36,682 nt of DNA from NCBI GenBank assembly GCA_035302865.1, contig DATGSF010000164.1, positions 1 to 36,682 on the forward strand, read 5' to 3'. Shown here in pieces: positions 19,042-33,679 of the stretch (the first letter of the stretch is position 1; each line of letters begins with the position of its first letter). A program made the translations under genes and the position numbers. The notes below the pieces were generated by a model. That model did no database searches, was not told the DNA's origin, and worked only from the letters and a program-made list of their open reading frames with translations. The stretch is from Chitinophagaceae bacterium (lineage in GTDB: Bacteria; Bacteroidota; Bacteroidia; Chitinophagales; Chitinophagaceae).

Positions 19042-20289
19042 ATGATGAAACAAAAAAGATTATTTAAAACCTTAACTGTTGTGTTATCCTGTACAAGTAT
19101 TTTATACTTTAATTCATGTAAAAAAGAAGAAATGCCTGAAAGAGGTAATGAAGATGCTGAGCTGTTAGATTGTAGTATATTTACTGAGGATATTGTTTTG
19201 GAAAAAAATCCAGAAAGAAATGTTGATTATTTAATAGATTGTAGAGTTAGAATAAATGGTTCTAAATTAACTATTGAGCCTGGTGTTATTATAGAATTTA
19301 CAGAAAATGGTTGGATAGAACAAAGAGGGAATTCAGAAGGAATTATTTCTGCAATTGGTACTGCAAATGACCCTATAATCTTTAGAGGTACCAAAAACAG
19401 TAAAGGACATTGGAAGGGTATAAAAATTGGAAGTGATAACAATGAAAACGAATTAAAATATATTAAACTTCAAGATGCAGGTAAAGAAAATTTAGCGGGA
19501 TTGAGAGTGGGTACAAATGCACATTTAAAGCTTTCAAATAGTGAAATATCTAATAATAAAGAAGCAGGTCTTAGCATTTTTACTGCAACTCCATTTGTTG
19601 GTGTTGATGTGGGAGAATATGCTGTAAATTTAACTAATAATAGAGTTTTTAATAATGCTTATCCTGTTTCCGTACATGTGCAAAATGTGAATAATTTAAC
19701 TCCTGGGAATGACTTTTCTGGAAATGATAGGGATGAAATAGAAGTAGAAACTGGAAATTCTTCGGGTTATAGGATTCTTCAAGATGTTACATGGAATAAT
19801 TTAGGTATGCCTTATATACTTCGTGGCGGTGATGTAAGAACGAGAGGAAAATTAACCATTGAGCCAGGAGTTATAATGAAATTTGATTTGAATGCAAATC
19901 TAACTATTACTAAGGATGGAAGTATTCACGCTGTTGGTACAGAAGAAAAACCAATAGTATTTACATCTATTGAAAATACTCCTCAATATTGGAGAAGCAT
20001 ACAAGCAGAATCGGAACAACCTGTCAATGAAATAGCATATGCTATAATTGAAAATACTGGTAATGAAAGTACAGGTAGTAGATGGAAACAAGGAAATGTT
20101 GTTTCATATAAAACAAGTCATGTACTTAATATTCATGATGTAAAATTTCGAAATATTAATCCAAAATTTTGTGCAGTGCGTGGTCCTGTTCAAGTGTCAA
20201 ATATTAGTATAGAAGGTCATGATCCAAATGAGGTATGTGAACACAATGAAGATCACCGACAAGCAGATAATGATTATGATATGCCCTAA
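19042..20289 (+). CDS. probable lipoprotein with an internally duplicated beta-helix-like module, function unknown
   Basis: Signal peptide with Cys residues at 17 and 26. KLTIEPGVI... modules sit at residues 75-146 and 270-340. Short Asn/Gly-rich repeats between them resemble parallel beta-helix turns. The tail is acidic and His/Cys-containing. Confidence 0.55.
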   Translation: MMKQKRLFKTLTVVLSCTSILYFNSCKKEEMPERGNEDAELLDCSIFTEDIVLEKNPERNVDYLIDCRVRINGSKLTIEPGVIIEFTENGWIEQRGNSEGIISAIGTANDPIIFRGTKNSKGHWKGIKIGSDNNENELKYIKLQDAGKENLAGLRVGTNAHLKLSNSEISNNKEAGLSIFTATPFVGVDVGEYAVNLTNNRVFNNAYPVSVHVQNVNNLTPGNDFSGNDRDEIEVETGNSSGYRILQDVTWNNLGMPYILRGGDVRTRGKLTIEPGVIMKFDLNANLTITKDGSIHAVGTEEKPIVFTSIENTPQYWRSIQAESEQPVNEIAYAIIENTGNESTGSRWKQGNVVSYKTSHVLNIHDVKFRNINPKFCAVRGPVQVSNISIEGHDPNEVCEHNEDHRQADNDYDMP

Positions 20290-20377: not shown

Positions 20378-20416
20378 AAAAAAGAGAGAGAATGTAGTCA
20401 AATTCTCTCTCTTTTT
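20378..20416. terminator. bidirectional intrinsic terminator between convergent genes
   Basis: aaaaaa-gagagagaat-gtagtcaa-attctctctc-ttttt. Confidence 0.8.
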
Positions 20417-20433: not shown

Positions 20434-23400
20434 TTATTTAAAAATAATTTTAATTTCTACTCTACGATCTAAAGCGGGGTTTAGGGAAGCTTTATTTGAT
20501 ATATTTATTCCATTTAGTTGAATTCTATTGACAGAAATACCAAACCTTTCCATCAGTATTGTTTTTACATTTAAGAAACGCTGTGTTGCAATTCTTTCAT
20601 TCACTTCCTTTGTACCAGAAGCATCTGTATATCCTTTTAGTTCAATTAAAGTGTTTTTGTTTGCTTTTATAAAATCTACAATTTCAATTAGTTTTTGCTG
20701 TTCTTTTTCAGAAAGTTGCGTAGAACCTAATTCAAAATAAACATTCCAACTTTCTATCGAACTTTGAGCATTGTCTTCTATATATTCATTATCTTCTTGT
20801 TTTTTATTTACTTCTGAGATGTTTTTTTCTTCCATAGCTTCAAATGAACTAATATCTTCTACGATTTCTTCGCCTTTTTCTTCAATTACAGTCTCTGTAT
20901 CTATTTTATCCTCTAATTTATCAACGGGATTAAGGATTATTACTTTTCCCTCATTAGATTTTTGAATGGATTTTACATCATCATTCTCACTTGATGAATT
21001 TTCTTCTTGAATTGTTACATCTTCTTCTTTATAGAAGTTATTGTTATCTTTATTTTCTAGATTGTCTTTGTTTTCTAAAGCTTCAAGACGCTTGCTCAGT
21101 TCTTCCAATTCTTTTGATAATTCACTATTAATGGCATTTTCTCCATTTTCAGCACCAGCTATAATGATAGGATTTAAACTAGGTCTCACACTTGCATTAA
21201 GATTGGTATTTTTATATAATAATTTCTCCAAGCCTAATATATGACGATCTAATTTGCTTCTATCCTGTATTAATGTATTTTTTAAACTTTCATTTTCTAT
21301 TTGAAGCTTTTTTAAATCTTCTTGAACTATCCTATAATTTTCTTTGTATTGCTCTAGTTCGGCATTGTTTAAACTAAACTGCATCTCCTTTTCTTCCTCA
21401 ACTTGCTTTTCCTCTTGCGCATTTTTTTTAAATCGATTGAAAAAACCTTTTTTATTATCTTCAAAATTCTTTTCTAAATTCTTTTGGGCTAGATCTAAAG
21501 AATCTATTTTAAGTTGTAATTCTTGTAAGTTCTTTTCCTCCTTCTGAATTGCTAATTCCTTTTCCTGCTTTGCAAATTGTAATTTTTCCAAAGAATCCAA
21601 TCCAGCGTTTATTTTTTTCTGATAATTATTTATTTCTTCTTGTTCTTCCTCCTCATAACTGTTGACCCAGATTGTAGAGTCTTTAATTATATTTTTATTT
21701 ACGGAATCGAATGTTTCTACATAATAAATTTGATTATGATCTTTCTTACTCGAACTTGTTTTTTCTAGCTTGGCCTCTGTATTGTTCAAGGTGTCTTTAG
21801 GTAATGTATAATAATAAACTCTTTTATTTTTTAAATACTCTGATTTGTCATCTTTTAAATCAAAAATAGCTTTTTCCATTAATAAAATAGTAGTATTCAA
21901 TTCTTCTATTCTCAATGAATCATTTAAATCTAAGCTTTCCTTTTTAAGTATTTGCGTTTTTTCCTGCTCTGATTTTTCTAAAATAGATATTAGCTCTTTG
22001 TGAATTAGTGAATCAGTATTTAGATTTTTTAAAACAGCAGTATCTTTTATATAATAAATACTACCATATTCTTTATTGTTTATTTTATCATTACTTTCCT
22101 CTTTTATAGGTTTGAAGCTATAAAATATTTTTTCTGAATCTGGAAGTGGTTGATAAGAATATTCTATTTTTTTATTGTTTTTATATTCTTTTAATTGATT
22201 TTTAAAAGAATGTAAAATTTTATCAAGATAAATAATATCGGCACTATCGCTGGGAGTTAAATACTCTTTTTCCAAAAGATAAGATTTTTCTTTTTCTAAA
22301 ATTTTTATTGATTTTTTCAAATCTTCAAATTTAATGGAATCATTAACTCCAGCTGTATATTGTTCTAGTAATTTAACTTTATCCTTTAATTTACTTAGTT
22401 CAAATATTAAATTATCAATTTCTTTATTTTGAGCATTTATTTTTACATCCACAGACTCTTTCCAACCTATATCTTTTTGTTCGTCTTTTATTTCTTCATT
22501 TTTTTGGTATATGTAGAAATTTTGATTTGCATTAGTGTTATGATAAATTGGTCCAGCTTTAAAGGAAGAAGCTTTTTTTCCTATATGTATATTAAAACCA
22601 ATTTTATTAAAGATATAAAAATCATTTATCCCATCATTATTTCCTCTATTTTTGCCAGTAGATATAGGTTTCATGCTAGGATTAGCAGCATAAGCCTGTT
22701 CGGGAGAATTATAAGATGTTTTATATAAGCCACTTACATCATCTAAATAATCAGAAAATGCGTATTTAATATCTGTTTCCAGAAATAAACTTATATGATT
22801 TCCTAAGCGGAATTTCAAGCCTAAAGCTAAATCAAGATAAGGAATTAAATTGTTGTACTTTTCATGAGTTTCCGTTTGTAAATCTCTAAGATTTGTTTCG
22901 AAAATTCCATTTGTTTCAACATTAGGATTATCATAATCATAATGCATTCCATTATTATCATATAAATCCCCATAGTTTTTGAAATATGTCAACCCTGCAC
23001 CTGCTTGAATATATGGAGCTAAGAAGGCTTTTCTACTAAGAATTTTACCATTATCACTATGAAAAACAAATGCTAAGCCAACATCGTATATAGTAGACTT
23101 AAAATTCAATGATCTATCCCAATTTTTTACTGCTCTATCAAATTCACCATTAGATTTAATGTATCTATCACTCATAGATATTTCACCATAATTACCTTGA
23201 AGTTTTAAACCTATTCCCGGAGTTAAACGTTTTTCAATATTTATGTGATAACTTAAAGAGGAATGGTAATTCGGATTATAATAGAAAAACTGGTATAAAT
23301 TTTTCCAATCTTTCCATTTTTTAATTTGATAGGGACTTAAATCGCCATAATAATTCGTATATCCTGTACCTAAGCCAATTTTCCAATCTATTCCTGAGTT

Positions 23401-23475
23401 TTGCGCCTTTGCTTTATTGTTATTAATGACAAAACAAGAAATTGATAGAATTAATATATTTCTTAATTTTTTCAT
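20434..23475 (-). CDS. OmpA_C-domain protein, 1013 aa: N-terminal outer-membrane-barrel-like domain, ~580-aa coiled-coil-like spacer, C-terminal peptidoglycan-binding OmpA/MotB domain
   Basis: The C-terminal ~105 aa are classic OmpA_C (LKGYTDASGTKEVNERIATQRFLNVKTIL...DRRVEIKI). The start is set to the ATG at 23475 (MKKLRNILILSISCFVINNNKAKAQ, a signal peptide), because the track's 23496 start is a TTG that overlaps the upstream gene. Confidence 0.8.
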   Translation of the reverse strand: MKKLRNILILSISCFVINNNKAKAQNSGIDWKIGLGTGYTNYYGDLSPYQIKKWKDWKNLYQFFYYNPNYHSSLSYHINIEKRLTPGIGLKLQGNYGEISMSDRYIKSNGEFDRAVKNWDRSLNFKSTIYDVGLAFVFHSDNGKILSRKAFLAPYIQAGAGLTYFKNYGDLYDNNGMHYDYDNPNVETNGIFETNLRDLQTETHEKYNNLIPYLDLALGLKFRLGNHISLFLETDIKYAFSDYLDDVSGLYKTSYNSPEQAYAANPSMKPISTGKNRGNNDGINDFYIFNKIGFNIHIGKKASSFKAGPIYHNTNANQNFYIYQKNEEIKDEQKDIGWKESVDVKINAQNKEIDNLIFELSKLKDKVKLLEQYTAGVNDSIKFEDLKKSIKILEKEKSYLLEKEYLTPSDSADIIYLDKILHSFKNQLKEYKNNKKIEYSYQPLPDSEKIFYSFKPIKEESNDKINNKEYGSIYYIKDTAVLKNLNTDSLIHKELISILEKSEQEKTQILKKESLDLNDSLRIEELNTTILLMEKAIFDLKDDKSEYLKNKRVYYYTLPKDTLNNTEAKLEKTSSSKKDHNQIYYVETFDSVNKNIIKDSTIWVNSYEEEEQEEINNYQKKINAGLDSLEKLQFAKQEKELAIQKEEKNLQELQLKIDSLDLAQKNLEKNFEDNKKGFFNRFKKNAQEEKQVEEEKEMQFSLNNAELEQYKENYRIVQEDLKKLQIENESLKNTLIQDRSKLDRHILGLEKLLYKNTNLNASVRPSLNPIIIAGAENGENAINSELSKELEELSKRLEALENKDNLENKDNNNFYKEEDVTIQEENSSSENDDVKSIQKSNEGKVIILNPVDKLEDKIDTETVIEEKGEEIVEDISSFEAMEEKNISEVNKKQEDNEYIEDNAQSSIESWNVYFELGSTQLSEKEQQKLIEIVDFIKANKNTLIELKGYTDASGTKEVNERIATQRFLNVKTILMERFGISVNRIQLNGINISNKASLNPALDRRVEIKIIFK

Positions 23476-23476
23476 T

Positions 23477-24652
23477 TTATTTTCTATTTTTATCAAAACC
23501 TAACCATAAATTTATTTCTGCACTTAAACCAATAAAAGGTTTAACTCTGAAATTTTCCATTTGAATATTTTGGAAGCCATTGAATGCTTCTGTTGATGTA
23601 AATACTGCTCCTGCTTGAGCGCGGAAAATATGTAGAAACTTATATCCAACACCAGCGAAGAATGGTTTATTGATAATGAGACCTGTAATCTTATTATCTT
23701 CTTTATCTTTAAAATCTTTAATAAATACTCCTAAAGAAATTGAAGTATTCCCCCAGAAGCTTGAGTATCTATCATCAGCTAGAGGGAAAGATATGCCTAT
23801 ATACGGAGAAGAAGCGATATTTAAATTATCGATATCTCCACTTAGATAGGTTCCTCCATACCCAACATTTAAAGCAATATAATTACTCGATCTTTCTACA
23901 GGGTACCTTTTTATTTCTCTAAAGTCACTTAATACTACAATATTGCCGTTCATATAAGCATTAAGCTCTCTCCATGTCAAATCTAATAATTCCTCAATTT
24001 CTTTATTTCTGAGATTATAAGTATAATCTTCATTATTGTTGTTGGAGGCAACATAATATTTGGCATGTTTTGTTCTTTTACCTTTTATTTGCTCCAGTTT
24101 TTGTAATACCATATCTGAAAATCCTGAAAATTGTCCTGGAGTAATAATTCTATAAAAGCTAAGAGCTCCATCTACTACCTCGTTCATTTCATTAAGAATC
24201 TGTTTAGGGTTCTTATTTAAAGTAAGTTTTCTGGAATCAGCTTGCACAATATCATTGATATATGTTTTTAGATGTTGGTTAAGATTTTCTGCAAGGTTTA
24301 TTCTCTCATTGCTTTCCATTTTATTATAAAAATGAAAAGTAAAGCTATATTCTTGACTACCTCTTAATTTTTGATTAATTGGAATATATATAGTTTGATT
24401 TTCATTCCCTAGCGGTCTCTTCCATTCTGTGCTATATATTGGATTATTAGAATTTTCATTTTTATATATTTTCACCTCCACTAAATTGATATCTGTTGGA
24501 ACTTGAATCTTTAAAAGAAAAGGTGTCGCAGAGGGGAGTTCTTGATTTTCATTAAATATATTGTTATGATAATCATAAATAATAGTTGGGTTTTGACCAA
24601 AACTAGAGAATGCGAAAATTATTGACAGGAACGTTAAAACGAACTTTTGCAT
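23477..24652 (-). CDS. secreted hypothetical protein, 391 aa (beta-rich N-domain, helical middle, barrel-like C-terminal ~130 aa)
   Basis: Signal peptide MQKFVLTFLSIIFAFSSFGQ. The C-terminal part has alternating hydrophobic/aromatic strands (YIALNVGYGGTY, SPYIGISFPL, ISLGVFIKDF, FFAGVGYKF, FRAQAGAVFTS, FIGLSAEINLWLGF). Its stop lies 1 nt before the next ATG. Confidence 0.6.
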   Translation of the reverse strand: MQKFVLTFLSIIFAFSSFGQNPTIIYDYHNNIFNENQELPSATPFLLKIQVPTDINLVEVKIYKNENSNNPIYSTEWKRPLGNENQTIYIPINQKLRGSQEYSFTFHFYNKMESNERINLAENLNQHLKTYINDIVQADSRKLTLNKNPKQILNEMNEVVDGALSFYRIITPGQFSGFSDMVLQKLEQIKGKRTKHAKYYVASNNNNEDYTYNLRNKEIEELLDLTWRELNAYMNGNIVVLSDFREIKRYPVERSSNYIALNVGYGGTYLSGDIDNLNIASSPYIGISFPLADDRYSSFWGNTSISLGVFIKDFKDKEDNKITGLIINKPFFAGVGYKFLHIFRAQAGAVFTSTEAFNGFQNIQMENFRVKPFIGLSAEINLWLGFDKNRK

Positions 24653-24698: not shown

Positions 24699-24706
24699 CA
24701 AAGTTA
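24699..24706 (-). promoter_or_regulatory. -7 box TAACTTTG (minus strand) for the 391-aa/1013-aa operon
   Basis: The plus strand reads caaagtta. The box lies 46 nt upstream of the ATG at 24652. Confidence 0.5.
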
Positions 24707-24757
24707 AATAAATATATGTTGAAAAGGAGGGTTATAGTATACATAAAGTAAAGACAC

Positions 24758-24797
24758 AACGCAGTTTAACAATTTTTTGATAAAAGTAAACTGCGTT
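24758..24797 (-). terminator. hairpin downstream of the arginase-fold gene, possible terminator
   Basis: aacgcagttta / taaactgcgtt form an 11-bp stem with an 18-nt loop. The trailing T-run on the minus strand is weak (gtgtctttac). Confidence 0.4.
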
Positions 24798-24885
24798 TAA
24801 TCTTTACCTATAAAAATATAAGATTTTTTAGGGCTGGAATTGTATTCTATATAATAAGGATAATTTTATTCGAAAAAGTTTAACC

Positions 24886-26010
24886 TTAACTCAATCGTTC
24901 CTGCGCTCTTAACCAAGCATCTGGTAAATCACCAGATGCGGCTATGTGATAGTCAATATTGCTACAAGGAATAAAATCTTTATTTAAAAGCTGCACCCAC
25001 CATCGGTTTGTTCTTTTGCTTTGAATAAATAATAATGGATACCCTTTCACCTCTACATGATATTCTTTGAAATTATCAGGTTTTGTTTTATATGTAAGTT
25101 CTTTTTTTCCTAATTGAAAACCATCTAAAAAGTACCAGATCATTTGAGCAATAAGCTTTGCCCCGAGGCTATGAACATCCAATTCAGGTAAATATCCAGC
25201 AATTCCAAAACTTTTTATTTTTTCACTCATACCTGAATACTTAGCTAAAGCACAAAGTTCATCTCCAAATAATCCATTTGGGGAAGGGTTTTTATAAAAT
25301 ACTCCTTCTGAATAGCGTAACACGCTCATGTCTATGCTAACGATATCACTATTTCTAAAAACAGGCTCCATTCCTTCTAAATCTTCTCTTACTCTTCCTA
25401 CTCTATAGCAGTCGAATCTGAGTTTGTCTAAAGTTTCGAGCATTTCTGGATTTGTAAAATAGCTTTCAAAACCAACAATATTGAGATGTTTAACATAGTT
25501 TTCTTGTGATAGTAATAATTCCATTAAATAGCTGTCTTCATCAATGATTTCTTTCTCATGTAAATCTATTTTTTGATCGATTATTGTAATTTCGATAGGC
25601 TTTTTATTGGTTTTAAAAGGTGCATATTGTTGTAAGATAAAATCTTGTGATCCTCCTATTAAAATTACCACTTTATCCATTTCGTATAATTCAGTTAGTA
25701 CTGCCTTTAGTACAGTTGGCGTTAGGGCTTCAGGTCTATGTCTTAATAAAGTACCTATATCTAACACTTTATAATTTGGATACCAATCATATAATTTTGC
25801 TAATTCTTTTCTTATTTTATTTGCAGCATGAAAATTTTCATCAGCATTTAAACTGTGGCAACCCAAAAGAATAATATCAGCCTCCTCTACGCCCTCAATT
25901 CCTGCAATGGATTCTTTCATTTTTGCTCCTACTTGTAATGGAGATTCTAGTTCGGTTAGGGAATCCTTAAAGCTTCTTTGATCAAAAAAATCAGAAAAAT
26001 CTATATTCAT
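24886..26010 (-). CDS. arginase/formiminoglutamase-fold (ureohydrolase family) protein, metal-ligand motifs apparently degenerate
   Basis: Its length and the order of blocks (VILIGGSQDF, TIIDQKIDLHE, IVSIDMSVLRYSE) mirror the GGDHS / DAHxD / SxDxDxxDP blocks of ureohydrolases, but several ligand positions are substituted. Confidence 0.65.
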   Translation of the reverse strand: MNIDFSDFFDQRSFKDSLTELESPLQVGAKMKESIAGIEGVEEADIILLGCHSLNADENFHAANKIRKELAKLYDWYPNYKVLDIGTLLRHRPEALTPTVLKAVLTELYEMDKVVILIGGSQDFILQQYAPFKTNKKPIEITIIDQKIDLHEKEIIDEDSYLMELLLSQENYVKHLNIVGFESYFTNPEMLETLDKLRFDCYRVGRVREDLEGMEPVFRNSDIVSIDMSVLRYSEGVFYKNPSPNGLFGDELCALAKYSGMSEKIKSFGIAGYLPELDVHSLGAKLIAQMIWYFLDGFQLGKKELTYKTKPDNFKEYHVEVKGYPLLFIQSKRTNRWWVQLLNKDFIPCSNIDYHIAASGDLPDAWLRAQERLS

Positions 26011-31219: not shown

Positions 31220-33679
31220 CTATTTTAAAGATTCATATTTTTCTCGTTCTTTCTTATTAGCCCATGTTAATTTTAAATTTCCTTCCTCATCTTCTTTTAT
31301 TCTAAGATGTAATACTAAACCTTTGTTATTCTTTGGTTTTAATCCTTTTTTAATTCTCATTTTGTTTTTTTCTGGATTCTTTAATGGAATATCCAAAAAT
31401 AAATCAGTTCCATTTTGTAAACCATAGATTCCTTTTAAAGAAAATTGTAAAGCAGAGGTATATATTGTAAATGGTGGTATATAAATCTTACCTTCTTTAA
31501 TTTTTACTTTGTTTTGTATTTTTTCAAAAGTAACCTGATCTAATTGCCTGTTTTTAAATACATAATTAGAAAGATTAACTAAAGGTTCAAAATTGTTTAA
31601 TTCCCCATGGTTTATTTGAAATTTTACTTCTCCATTTACAGAATTTTCTATTAAACTTATTTCTTCACTAAATATCAAATCTGCATTAATCTCTGCATCC
31701 AAAGATCCTTTTATATTTTCTGATTTTAAATCCTTAATATTGAAATTGTTAAATGCATGGAAAAGTGTATTAATATTAACTGAACTGATTTTTGAATTTA
31801 ATTTTATAGGAATAAGATCTTGCTTTTTAATGTCCATATAGGCATCAAATTTTATTTGTCCTCCTGCATGCTTTAAATTAAAATCATCAAATGAAATTGC
31901 ATTTTCTTTAAAACTTGCAAGACCCCTTATTTCATGCGCTTTAAAATTATTATACTTGACTTTTTGTATATTTAGTTTTGCTAAGAAGGTGCTTTTATCC
32001 AATGCGGAAAGCAGTTTTTCATTAAATTTTCTGCTTTTTTCTTTTTCAATAAGATTCTTTTTTGATTTGATTTTAGTTTTAGGTTTTATAATAAACTTAA
32101 ATTCATTTAAATCAATTTCTTTACTATATACTTCAGTTTCTATATTTATACGACTGGGATCATCAAAATATGCATTTAAAAAACGCTTCCCTTCGCCAGT
32201 AATTTTAATTTCTGATTTTTTACTTTTTAGTAGTATGTTTTTTAATTCTAAATCTTCATCGTTAAATGCAATGTCGATGTCAGCTTGTGGAAAATGTAAA
32301 CCATTTGGAATATAAGTTAAGCCAGCGTCTTTTACCTTAAGAAAACCATGTAAGGAGCGACTGAAAGTATCTTCTGGAATTATAGGTCCTGAATATTTTA
32401 AATCGAATGTTGCACTTCCTGCATTGAAATTGATGGCTTTGCCAGTTAATTTATTTAGCTGATCAACGGGGAAGTTACTAAATATTCTTGTGGAAAGATG
32501 AGGATGATTTAAGCCATAGATAAAAGTAGTATCTGCTTTAAATGGCACGTCTTCAAAAGAGCCTTCAATTTTTTCAAAGAATATTGATGTATTATCATCA
32601 TTCTTTCCTAAATTTTTATTTGTTTGATTTATTAATGTAGCATTAATGTTTGCCCTTGTTAAATCACCATATGGCGTAATTAAAGTATTGTTTTCTAATT
32701 CAATATTTATATGGACATTTGGCGTGTCAGGATAGGCAAAGCCTCCTTTTAAAAAAGCATCAAATGTAATTGGGTTTTCTATATCTATTTCTTCAAATTT
32801 CTTGTGAATATTATAAGGTAAAAGATGCATTCCTTTTTTAAAATTTAAATTCTTACTGTGCAAGTAAAAGTCATATTTTGCAGGTTTATCAATATAAAAC
32901 TTTAATGTCGACGTAATTTTTTCATTGCCTATTTGAATTAACTGCTCTAAAAGCTCAATTTTATTTTCATCTTTAAAGTATGTTGCTTTAAAATTGGATT
33001 TTAACTCCTGTTCTTCTAAGTATACTCCTTTGTCAAGATTGAAGCCTAATTGATGTACAAATGCATCCAATTGTATGTAGTATTCCGGATTGTCCTCAAA
33101 ACTATTTCCTTTTCCCTTTAATTTATTTATAATAAAATGAAAATTCTTATTACGTAAAGTATTATCAAAGTTAAATTCTAGATTTTCAATTGAAATAAAC
33201 TTAATATTAATTTCCGAGTTTTTGTTTTGGTTTTTTTTCTTTTTATTTTGAAAAGCTGTTATGTTACTATATTTTTCCTTGTTTTTAAAAAGATTTATTT
33301 TTCCATTACTGATAATGATTCGATTTATTTTTGTTTGGGATTTTATAAGAGCAAATGCATCTAGTTGAATATAGATATTTTTCAGATATAACGCTTCTAC
33401 ATTATGTACATGGTACAAAGAATCTTGTAGATGAATGTTTTTTAGTTTTAAAGAAAATTTTGGAAAAGTTTTTAAAAGATTGGGTTCAACATCTCCCAAA
33501 ATAAGGTTGCCTGAAACTTCTTCTTTGAGAATGTTTGTAACTTTCTCTTTGATACTTTCTTTGTTATAGTTAAAATACAAATGCAAAGCAGACCAAATTA
33601 ATAAAGGCATGCTCAAAAAAACACCTAAGCATATAAGAATTAATTTAATCCATTTCTTTTGAAACTTTGTATATTTCAT
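31220..33679 (-). CDS. AsmA-family outer-membrane biogenesis protein
   Basis: 819 aa with an N-terminal membrane anchor (LILICLGVFLSMPLLIWSAL). The body is long, beta-rich and repetitive, with a basic C-terminal region, as in AsmA-like proteins. The assignment rests on overall architecture only. Confidence 0.6.
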   Translation of the reverse strand: MKYTKFQKKWIKLILICLGVFLSMPLLIWSALHLYFNYNKESIKEKVTNILKEEVSGNLILGDVEPNLLKTFPKFSLKLKNIHLQDSLYHVHNVEALYLKNIYIQLDAFALIKSQTKINRIIISNGKINLFKNKEKYSNITAFQNKKKKNQNKNSEINIKFISIENLEFNFDNTLRNKNFHFIINKLKGKGNSFEDNPEYYIQLDAFVHQLGFNLDKGVYLEEQELKSNFKATYFKDENKIELLEQLIQIGNEKITSTLKFYIDKPAKYDFYLHSKNLNFKKGMHLLPYNIHKKFEEIDIENPITFDAFLKGGFAYPDTPNVHINIELENNTLITPYGDLTRANINATLINQTNKNLGKNDDNTSIFFEKIEGSFEDVPFKADTTFIYGLNHPHLSTRIFSNFPVDQLNKLTGKAINFNAGSATFDLKYSGPIIPEDTFSRSLHGFLKVKDAGLTYIPNGLHFPQADIDIAFNDEDLELKNILLKSKKSEIKITGEGKRFLNAYFDDPSRINIETEVYSKEIDLNEFKFIIKPKTKIKSKKNLIEKEKSRKFNEKLLSALDKSTFLAKLNIQKVKYNNFKAHEIRGLASFKENAISFDDFNLKHAGGQIKFDAYMDIKKQDLIPIKLNSKISSVNINTLFHAFNNFNIKDLKSENIKGSLDAEINADLIFSEEISLIENSVNGEVKFQINHGELNNFEPLVNLSNYVFKNRQLDQVTFEKIQNKVKIKEGKIYIPPFTIYTSALQFSLKGIYGLQNGTDLFLDIPLKNPEKNKMRIKKGLKPKNNKGLVLHLRIKEDEEGNLKLTWANKKEREKYESLK

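What the first reader, a model, noticed from the sequence alone, without database searches (positions are those of the whole stretch)
20434..24652. Uncharacterised two-gene envelope operon: a secreted 391-aa protein coupled to a 1013-aa barrel / coiled-coil / OmpA_C giant
Seen in the sequence: the 391-aa ORF has a signal peptide (MQKFVLTFLSIIFAFSSFGQ) and ends with TAA at 23477..23479. The next ATG (23475, MKKLRNILILSISCFVINNNKAKAQ, a second signal peptide) follows after a single base, so both are very likely made from one mRNA. A TAACTTTG -7 box sits 46 nt upstream of the first ATG, and a strong bidirectional terminator (20378..20416) closes the unit. The large protein joins three modules. 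Residues ~32-310 have Gly/aromatic alternating strands typical of an outer-membrane barrel (GLGTGYTNYYGDL, APYIQAGAGLTYF, LDLALGLKFRLG, FNKIGFNIHIG). About 580 residues are K/E/N/L-rich heptad-like sequence. The end is a textbook OmpA_C peptidoglycan-binding domain. The first protein has no motif I can name. Both flanks are housekeeping or unrelated genes, and by eye this stretch is more AT-rich than the flanks (one 60-nt sample was ~27% GC, against ~47% in a recA sample). Established knowledge: OmpA_C domains bind peptidoglycan non-covalently. I cannot match either protein by motif to the known Bacteroidota envelope machines (T9SS Por/Gld/Spr, Tol-Pal, Lpt, Bam). Inference: this is an OM-anchored, PG-binding, periplasm-spanning tether or scaffold with a dedicated secreted partner, and it is the best candidate in this window for an undescribed system.
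Basis: partly seen in the sequence, partly recalled or inferred. Interest (0 to 1): 0.72.

Follow-up and report, generated by a model that had tools for sequence, protein, structure and literature searches.

The report
Conserved paired outer-membrane/cell-wall tether genes
Two tightly coupled genes, found together across the phylum Bacteroidota, encode a giant OmpA-type protein (an outer-membrane barrel related to the secretion protein PorG, a long helical spacer and a cell-wall-binding domain) and an unannotated partner that probably also sits in the outer membrane; the pair is real and unstudied, but it is a variation on a familiar kind of envelope tether.

Summary
The claimed AT-rich island is not real: the window is 30.1% GC, gene A 29.9% and gene B 26.9%.

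**Gene B (1013 aa)** has three modelled parts:
- an 8-stranded outer-membrane barrel (residues 31-298);
- a spacer of about 600 aa with seven helices, four of them with heptad periodicity, and about 285 low-confidence residues;
- an OmpA_C domain that keeps the Asp/Arg pair known to bind peptidoglycan.

B lacks the tail cysteines PorG uses to bond GldK/PorK.

**Gene A (391 aa)** matches no Pfam, NCBIfam or PDB family. It models as a beta-sandwich, a helical domain and a C-terminal barrel of about 8 strands. It is therefore probably an outer-membrane protein, not a soluble secreted one.

**The pair** is adjacent in 53 of 60 related loci across Bacteroidota, with a median gap of 6 nt and no third conserved gene.

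Best reading: a two-barrel outer-membrane-to-peptidoglycan tether of unknown physiological role. I rate it a new variant of a known kind, of moderate interest.

The parts
24746..24809 (-). Strong hairpin between the upstream arginase-like gene and the A-B promoter. It is probably that gene's terminator and marks the upstream edge of the unit.
   Evidence: RNA fold dG -24.3 kcal/mol, z -8.06, 0 of 200 shuffles as good.
24699..24706 (-). Bacteroidota-type -7 promoter box TAACTTTG, 46 nt upstream of A's ATG.
   Evidence: Read directly. The match to the TAnnTTTG consensus is from established knowledge; no experiment confirms it.
23477..24652 (-). Gene A, 391 aa, an unannotated family. Signal peptide at residues 1-19, with cleavage before the invariant Q20.
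   Evidence: ORF. No Pfam or NCBIfam family. 45 homologues. 422 clusters at 50% identity among 1.84 billion representatives.
23945..24595 (-). Gene A predicted periplasmic part: beta-sandwich (residues 20-111) and helical domain (residues 112-236).
   Evidence: AF2 model, mean pLDDT 85.7. No significant structural or sequence match.
23498..23944 (-). Gene A C-terminal beta-barrel of about 8 strands (residues 237-385), its most conserved region.
   Evidence: AF2 strands. Foldseek best hits are the OmpA transmembrane domain, the OprF barrel and Ail, at probability 0.93-0.99 but E no better than 7e-3. 30 of the 41 columns conserved at 90% or more lie here.
20434..23475 (-). Gene B, 1013 aa, an OmpA-family protein. 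Signal peptide at residues 1-24, with cleavage before Q25. Its ATG lies one base after A's stop codon.
22582..23385 (-). Gene B N-terminal 8-stranded outer-membrane barrel (residues 31-298) of the PorG/DUF6089 lineage, with four long, conserved, Asp-rich outer loops.
   Evidence: AF2 pLDDT above 90. Foldseek target TM-scores of about 0.7 to the OmpA-long barrel and NspA. NCBIfam PorG 46.5-53.2 bits against a cutoff of 130. Some homologues pass the Pfam DUF6089 threshold. Loop conservation.
20752..22581 (-). Gene B spacer (residues 299-908): seven helices interleaved with low-confidence segments.
   Evidence: AF2. Heptad test. Spacer length 226-792 aa, median 455, in 91 homologues.
20437..20751 (-). 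Gene B OmpA_C peptidoglycan-binding domain (residues 909-1013). D951 and R966 align to the Asp271/Arg286 pair of Acinetobacter baumannii OmpA.
   Evidence: Pfam PF00691, 51 bits, E 2e-13. Foldseek TM-scores 0.73-0.88. Alignment to 3td3. R966 is invariant and D951 is conserved at 90% or more.
20378..20416 (.). Hairpin with an A-tract on one side and a T-tract on the other. It is a bidirectional terminator shared with the convergent gene at 19042..20289.
   Evidence: Sequence. dG -19.7 kcal/mol, z -6.96.

Best explanation
A and B are made from one mRNA and both are exported through Sec. Each has a signal-peptidase-I type signal followed by Gln.

**B** inserts an 8-stranded PorG/DUF6089-type barrel into the outer membrane. 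From the periplasmic end of that barrel it extends a long spacer that is partly coiled-coil and partly flexible. Its C-terminal OmpA_C domain binds the diaminopimelate stem peptide of peptidoglycan non-covalently. This makes B an OmpA-style outer-membrane-to-cell-wall tether with an unusually long and evolutionarily variable spacer.

**A** is a second small outer-membrane barrel. It carries a periplasmic beta-sandwich plus helical domain and acts as B's dedicated partner, probably by binding B's barrel or spacer in the membrane or periplasm.

**Shown here:** gene structure, fold predictions, homology, conserved peptidoglycan-binding residues and phylum-wide gene pairing.

**Inferred:** physical A-B contact, actual peptidoglycan binding, and the physiological role (envelope integrity or spacing).
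For: - B's architecture: AF2 model. The top Foldseek hit is a full-length E. coli OmpA model, 9a2m, at E 5.9e-8, followed by barrel and OmpA_C hits.
- OmpA_C scores above the Pfam threshold. D951/R966 align to the pair that binds diaminopimelate in 3td3 and are conserved in 91 sequences.
- A's C-terminal barrel.
- Pairing: an A-like gene lies directly upstream of a B-like gene in Flavobacteriales, Chitinophagaceae, Cyclobacteriaceae, Pontibacter, Sphingobacteriales and Bacteroidales genomes, 53 of 60 loci.
- The gap between A's stop and B's ATG has a median of 6 nt. It is 20 nt or less in 36 of 48 loci, and 10 are 4-nt overlaps of A's stop codon with B's ATG.
- No third conserved neighbour exists, and the flanks differ in each lineage.
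- Hairpins bound the unit on both sides.
Against: - No experiment, and no multimer model, shows that A and B touch.
- A's barrel assignment rests on AF2 plus weak Foldseek scores (E no better than 7e-3).
- A spacer of 226-792 aa is far longer than needed to reach peptidoglycan, so simple tethering may not be the whole function.
- B's outer loops are as conserved as its strands, with 20 of 34 highly conserved columns in loops. This hints at a surface-facing or partner-binding role that a plain tether does not need.
- In Thermoflexibacter (two loci) and in two other loci from unnamed metagenome genomes, A occurs without an adjacent B.
- PorG homology leaves a T9SS or gliding role open.
Confidence: 0.5

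Rival explanations
1. T9SS or gliding accessory. B is a peptidoglycan-anchored paralogue of PorG that, together with A, fixes part of the type IX secretion or gliding apparatus to the cell wall. It would combine the roles of PorG (barrel) and PorE (OmpA_C anchor).
For: All 25 B-family barrels hit NCBIfam T9SS_PorG over nearly the full model (best E 7.4e-19). The B model's OmpA_C domain also matches the solved PorE C-terminal domain, 6top. In one locus (L062) a PorE-like gene lies two genes upstream and T9SS cargo genes lie downstream. PorG is an essential 8-strand T9SS barrel (PMC12635249).
Against: Scores of 46-53 bits are far below the curated cutoff of 130. Mature B has no cysteine, and 80 of 91 homologues have none, whereas PorG acts through tail cysteines disulfide-bonded to GldK/PorK. 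No T9SS or gld gene recurs next to the pair in 61 loci. An OmpA_C anchor would immobilise a barrel that, in the published model, must move with the track.
Confidence: 0.17
2. Surface-facing receptor or channel. B's conserved, Asp-rich outer loops bind a ligand, ion or surface partner. The peptidoglycan anchor and A only stabilise it.
For: Loops L3 and L4 are as conserved as the strands and carry invariant Asp residues (D45, D103, D170, D242, D245, D246, D285). They are modelled at pLDDT above 90.
Against: 8-stranded barrels rarely conduct solutes. No ligand-binding family matched. This idea does not explain the long spacer or A's periplasmic domain.
Confidence: 0.12
3. Periplasmic scaffold for division or vesiculation control. 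The long helical spacer oligomerises and organises outer-membrane constriction or vesicle release, in the way TolA, CpoB or Pal-type systems do.
For: Helices with significant heptad periodicity are present. Loss of another Bacteroidota OmpA_C protein, CHU_0125, gives about six-fold more vesicles and outer-membrane defects (PMC5891637).
Against: There is no linkage to tol, fts or other division genes. The spacer is poorly conserved in sequence and length. No inner-membrane component is in the module.
Confidence: 0.1
4. The two are functionally unrelated outer-membrane proteins that merely share an operon.
For: A occurs without an adjacent B in Thermoflexibacter (two loci) and in two other loci from unnamed metagenome genomes.
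Against: Adjacency, order and near-zero spacing persist across lineages that share only about 30% protein identity, while every other neighbour changes.
Confidence: 0.06

Closest known systems
E. coli-type OmpA (8-strand barrel plus OmpA_C)
   Same: Same domain order and same two folds. A full-length OmpA model is the top structural hit. The peptidoglycan-binding Asp/Arg pair is kept.
   Different: B's barrel belongs to the PorG/DUF6089 sequence lineage, and the Pfam scan of B returned only the OmpA_C domain. A spacer of about 600 aa replaces OmpA's short hinge. A dedicated partner gene is conserved next to B.
T9SS PorG (NCBIfam NF052316; PMC12635249)
   Same: Homologous 8-stranded outer-membrane barrel restricted to Bacteroidota.
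   Different: PorG is a single-domain protein (the NF052316 model is 209 positions) whose periplasmic tail cysteines bond GldK/PorK. B has no mature cysteine, scores 46-53 bits against a cutoff of 130, and carries a spacer plus OmpA_C.
PorE / CHU_0125 (TPR + PD40/WD40 + OmpA_C; PMC12773672, PMC5891637)
   Same: Bacteroidota multidomain proteins that anchor to peptidoglycan through OmpA_C. The solved PorE C-terminal domain is a structural match to B's OmpA_C.
   Different: PorE-type proteins have TPR and PD40/WD40 domains (PMC5891637, PMC12773672). B has a barrel and a helical spacer and matches only the OmpA_C part of those NCBIfam models. PorE being a lipoprotein is from my own knowledge; B has no lipobox cysteine.
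OmpM / SlpA tethers of Terrabacteria (PMC10628300, PMC9388160)
   Same: Works alike in outline: an outer-membrane barrel joined by a long helical or coiled-coil stalk to a peptidoglycan-binding domain.
   Different: Those proteins use an SLH domain. That it is N-terminal, followed by a trimeric coiled coil and a large C-terminal barrel, is from my own knowledge. B has the opposite order, OmpA_C instead of SLH, an 8-strand barrel and an interrupted spacer. No homology was found.
Bacteroidota major OmpA (F. johnsoniae Fjoh_0697; Capnocytophaga gingivalis OmpA, PDB 5wtl/5wtp)
   Same: Fjoh_0697 is described as an 8-strand outer-membrane protein that anchors the membrane to the cell wall (PMC12611786). 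The Capnocytophaga OmpA_C structures match B's C-terminal domain.
   Different: From my own knowledge, these proteins have calcium-binding thrombospondin type 3 repeats between barrel and OmpA_C. B instead has helices and disordered stretches, and no partner gene is known for them.

Membership tests
OmpA_C / OmpA family (PF00691) | Pfam OmpA domain above the gathering threshold | tested here: met
   51 bits against a cutoff of 27.2, E 2e-13, residues 913-989.
OmpA_C / OmpA family (PF00691) | OmpA_C fold | tested here: met
   AF2 pLDDT above 90 for residues 909-1012. Foldseek TM-scores 0.73-0.88 to OprF, A. baumannii OmpA and Pal.
OmpA_C / OmpA family (PF00691) | Asp/Arg pair that binds diaminopimelate (A. 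baumannii OmpA D271/R286) | tested here: met
   D951 and R966 align to them. R966 is invariant and D951 is conserved at 90% or more in 91 sequences.
OmpA_C / OmpA family (PF00691) | Binds peptidoglycan | not testable with these tools
   Needs a pull-down with purified sacculi.
Classical OmpA (barrel + short hinge + OmpA_C) | N-terminal 8-stranded barrel | tested here: met
   Eight strands at residues 31-298. Foldseek hits to the OmpA barrel, NspA and Ail.
Classical OmpA (barrel + short hinge + OmpA_C) | Barrel recognised by a Pfam barrel family, and a short hinge before OmpA_C | tested here: not met
   The Pfam scan of B returned only the OmpA_C domain. The spacer is about 600 aa.
T9SS PorG (NF052316) | Score at or above the curated cutoff (130 bits) | tested here: not met
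   46.5 bits for the full protein and 53.2 bits for the barrel alone. All 25 family members tested match the model; best E 7.4e-19.
T9SS PorG (NF052316) | 8-stranded outer-membrane barrel | tested here: met
   The NCBIfam alignment covers model positions 4-205 of 209.
T9SS PorG (NF052316) | Cysteine(s) in the periplasmic C-tail that disulfide-bond GldK/PorK (PMC12635249) | tested here: not met
   The only Cys is C14, in the signal peptide. 80 of 91 homologues have no mature Cys.
T9SS PorG (NF052316) | Required for type IX secretion | not testable with these tools
   Needs a deletion mutant and a secretion assay.
PorE / CHU_0125 family | TPR and PD40/WD40 domains, and a lipoprotein signal | tested here: not met
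   No TPR or PD40 hit. There is no lipobox cysteine. Only the OmpA_C part matches in homologues.
OmpM/SlpA-type tether | SLH domain and a continuous trimeric coiled coil | tested here: not met
   No SLH hit. The helices are interrupted by segments with pLDDT below 50.
Small 8-stranded outer-membrane barrel (protein A, C-terminal part) | Closed barrel of about 8 amphipathic strands | tested here: inconclusive
   AF2 gives seven or eight strands at residues 237-382. Foldseek to the OmpA transmembrane domain, OprF and Ail gives probability 0.93-0.99 but E 7e-3 or weaker. Pfam OMP_b-brl is seen in only 2 of 45 members, at E 0.03 or weaker. Model coordinates could not be inspected.
Any curated family (protein A) | Significant match in Pfam, NCBIfam or PDB sequences | tested here: not met

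The most novel reading that the evidence does not exclude
A and B form a previously undescribed, Bacteroidota-specific two-barrel envelope complex. In this reading a PorG-derived barrel is tied to the cell wall through a long spacer of lineage-specific length, and its conserved outer loops and partner protein A couple a surface or secretion/gliding-related function to peptidoglycan. One possible form is a static anchor or spacing element that complements the mobile PorG/SprF-GldK track.
Probability: 0.2. Interest if true: 0.7.

Novelty: new variant of a known kind. Interest (0 to 1): 0.45.

Why it matters
Envelope organisation in Bacteroidota differs from the E. coli model, as recent work on BAM, T9SS and the gliding track shows. 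How their outer membrane is tied to the cell wall is only partly known.

This module adds three things:
- a PorG-lineage barrel fused to a peptidoglycan anchor;
- a spacer whose length varies more than three-fold between lineages;
- an obligate-looking partner from an unannotated family of about 400 clusters at 50% identity.

If A and B form a complex, they give a tractable handle on outer-membrane-to-peptidoglycan spacing and on how PorG-type barrels diversified. If not, B is one more OmpA-family tether. The pair occurs in Echinicola vietnamensis and in several Pontibacter species. Transposon-fitness libraries exist for E. vietnamensis and for P. actiniarum, so the question is cheap to test.

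Tried and rejected
- **AT-rich island or horizontal transfer:** rejected. GC content is in line with the window.
- **A and B barrels as paralogues:** rejected. hhalign probability is below 1%.
- **Sequence matches to solved structures:** none significant for the A profile or the B-barrel profile.
- **Consistent weak Pfam signal across 45 A homologues:** none.
- **Whole-model Foldseek for A:** only weak barrel hits, and nothing for the N-domain.
- **A third conserved gene around the pair:** none. The next clusters were antisense shadow ORFs inside A and B.
- **Generic terminator scan:** it missed the 20378..20416 hairpin, probably because its flanking A and T tracts pair into the stem. Folding confirmed the hairpin.
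- **Literature searches** (PorG/OmpA/coiled-coil; DUF6089; Bacteroidota outer-membrane tether; CHU_0125): none describes this pair. CHU_0125 turned out to be PorE-like.

Full report
**1. Observation**

The two minus-strand ORFs are as described. Gene A lies at 23477..24652 (391 aa). Gene B lies at 20434..23475 (1013 aa from its ATG; the open frame runs back to a TTG at 23496). The junction reads AGA AAA TAA A ATG, so one base separates A's stop from B's start.

TAACTTTG lies at 24706..24699, 46 nt before A's ATG. The hairpin at 20378..20416 folds at -19.7 kcal/mol (z -6.96) and has an A-tract and a T-tract on either side, so it can terminate both convergent genes. I also found a stronger hairpin at 24746..24809 (-24.3 kcal/mol, z -8.06). 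It lies between the upstream arginase-like gene and the -7 box, so the unit is bracketed on both sides.

The composition claim fails. The window is 30.1% GC, A is 29.9%, B is 26.9%, and the recA region is about 35%. Flanking genes are housekeeping.

**2. Gene B**

Pfam finds only OmpA_C (51 bits, residues 913-989). An AlphaFold2 (AF2) model built from 91 sequences (mean pLDDT 72) shows three parts:
- Eight strands between residues 31 and 298, at pLDDT above 90. The loops on one side are long (31, 21, 40 and 46 aa) and the turns on the other are mostly short, the usual outer-membrane-protein pattern.
- Seven helices: 351-401, 408-432, 487-510, 517-541, 594-680, 689-756 and 783-806. They are separated by segments with pLDDT below 50.
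- A confident OmpA_C domain at residues 909-1012.

The best Foldseek match is a full-length E. coli OmpA model (E 5.9e-8). Barrel matches follow (OmpA-long target TM-score 0.71, NspA 0.70), along with many OmpA_C matches, including the PorE C-terminal domain and Capnocytophaga OmpA.

D951 and R966 align with the A. baumannii OmpA residues in the GHTD...R motif. That these are Asp271 and Arg286, which bind diaminopimelate, is established knowledge. R966 is invariant and D951 is conserved at 90% or more in the family.

A register test shows significant heptad periodicity in four of the seven helices. 'Coiled coil' is therefore only partly right. Spacer length in 91 homologues runs from 226 to 792 aa (median 455). 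The K/E richness is specific to this AT-rich lineage: 28% E+K in the two closest homologues, against a family median of 13%.

**3. The link to PorG**

NCBIfam's T9SS PorG model matches B residues 31-301 over model positions 4-205 of 209 (E 3.6e-12, 46.5 bits; cutoff 130). All 25 family barrels I aligned hit this model, with a best E of 7.4e-19. Some homologues pass the Pfam DUF6089 threshold.

PorG is an essential 8-strand T9SS barrel. Its periplasmic tail cysteines form a disulfide with GldK/PorK (PMC12635249). Mature B has no cysteine, and 80 of 91 homologues have none. B is therefore a PorG-lineage paralogue and not a PorG.

The outer loops, especially L3 and L4, are as conserved as the strands. 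They hold 20 of the 34 columns conserved at 90% or more, including seven invariant or near-invariant Asp residues. I cannot explain this.

**4. Gene A**

A has no Pfam, NCBIfam or PDB-sequence match, either alone or as a 45-sequence profile. The AF2 model (pLDDT 85.7) shows:
- a signal helix;
- a beta-sandwich at residues 23-111;
- a helical domain at residues 114-234;
- seven or eight long strands at residues 237-382.

The best Foldseek hits are the OmpA transmembrane domain, the OprF barrel and Ail. Their probabilities are 0.93-0.99 but the E-values are only about 1e-2. The strand region is the most conserved part of A, with 30 of the 41 highly conserved columns. It ends in ...EINLWLGF, which resembles an outer-membrane-protein C-terminal signal; this last point is my reading of the sequence.

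I conclude that A is probably an outer-membrane barrel with a periplasmic N-domain, not a soluble secreted protein. Its barrel is unrelated in sequence to B's.

The family is small and uniform. It has 422 clusters at 50% identity with E of 1e-3 or better among 1.84 billion representatives, and the full-length hits listed are about 360-420 aa.

**5. Pairing**

- Distant A homologues in Flavobacteriales and Chitinophagaceae genomes, and a distant B homologue in Echinicola, all show A directly upstream of B, while all other neighbours differ.
- A scan of species-representative genomes gave 56 loci. They come from Chitinophagaceae, Pontibacter, Algoriphagus, Rhodonellum, Nitritalea, Cryomorphaceae, Sphingobacteriales, Bacteroidales and other groups.
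- Three of the weakest-scoring B homologues each have an A gene of 386-393 aa directly upstream.
- Overall, 53 of 60 loci with enough downstream sequence carry an adjacent, same-strand B-like gene. One more has a frameshifted B.
- The gap from A's stop to B's ATG has a median of 6 nt. It is 20 nt or less in 36 of 48 loci, and 10 are 4-nt overlaps of A's stop codon with B's ATG.
- Clustering all ORFs in 61 loci found no third conserved gene.
- Exceptions are A alone in Thermoflexibacter (two loci) and in two other loci from unnamed metagenome genomes, and topA inserted between A and a B-like gene in one locus.

**6. Interpretation**

The best-supported mechanism is an OmpA-style outer-membrane-to-peptidoglycan tether (B) with a long, variable spacer and a dedicated outer-membrane partner (A). 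Gene structure, folds, homology, binding residues and pairing are shown. Physical contact, peptidoglycan binding and the physiological role are inferred.

Rivals are:
- a T9SS or gliding anchor, supported by PorG homology and one PorE-adjacent locus, but contradicted by the missing cysteines and the lack of gene linkage;
- a surface receptor that uses the conserved loops;
- a division or vesiculation scaffold, by analogy with the phenotype of the PorE-like CHU_0125 (PMC5891637);
- unrelated proteins that merely share an operon.

In outline the module works like the OmpM/SlpA tethers (PMC10628300, PMC9388160), but it shares no domains with them.

**7. Verdict**

The finding is real, and its anatomy is largely as described. 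It is conserved across a phylum and I found no description of it. B belongs to the OmpA family and derives its barrel from the PorG lineage. A is a family without annotation. I rate it a new variant of a known kind, with interest 0.45.

Noticed in passing
window 24746-24809 (-): Strong hairpin (-24.3 kcal/mol, z -8.06) just downstream of the arginase-like gene and upstream of A's -7 box. It is probably that gene's terminator.
   Followed up: partly
window 22582-23385 (-), B residues 44-74, 103-123, 170-209, 240-285: The predicted outer loops of B's barrel are as conserved as its strands and carry invariant Asp residues (D45, D103, D170, D242, D245, D246, D285). This is unusual for outer-membrane-protein loops and may mark a calcium or partner-binding site.
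   Followed up: partly
window 20752-22581 (-), B residues 311-905: The spacer contains nine 'DS' motifs, several at the start of predicted helices. It also has four [IV]-[YF]-[YF] motifs (near residues 450, 473, 553 and 583) inside the low-confidence stretches. This suggests a degenerate repeat or short binding motifs.
   Followed up: no
L025, L026 (Thermoflexibacter), L041, L044, L039: An A homologue is present without an adjacent B. In L039 a topoisomerase gene lies between A and a B-like gene. I could not check whether B lies elsewhere in these genomes.
   Followed up: partly
L062:1-12553: In one metagenome genome the pair is preceded by a PorE-like gene (TPR/PD40/OmpA) and a gene with PTL_trimer and Peptidase_S74 domains. 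Genes for T9SS cargo with Por_Secre_tail follow it. This is a single case.
   Followed up: no
window 24886-26010 (-): A 374-aa protein with a weak formimidoylglutamase (hutG) match (48 bits against a cutoff of 229) and no Pfam hit. It is a separate transcription unit.
   Followed up: no
window 19042-20289 (+): A 415-aa protein with a lipoprotein-like signal (…FNSC) and no family match. It converges on the same terminator as B.
   Followed up: no
window 31220-33679 (-): An 819-aa ORF with no Pfam family at E of 1e-5 or better.
   Followed up: no
window 23727-23760 (-): A terminator-like hairpin flagged inside gene A by the pattern scan. One site was found against 1.5 expected by chance, so it is probably not functional.
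   Followed up: no
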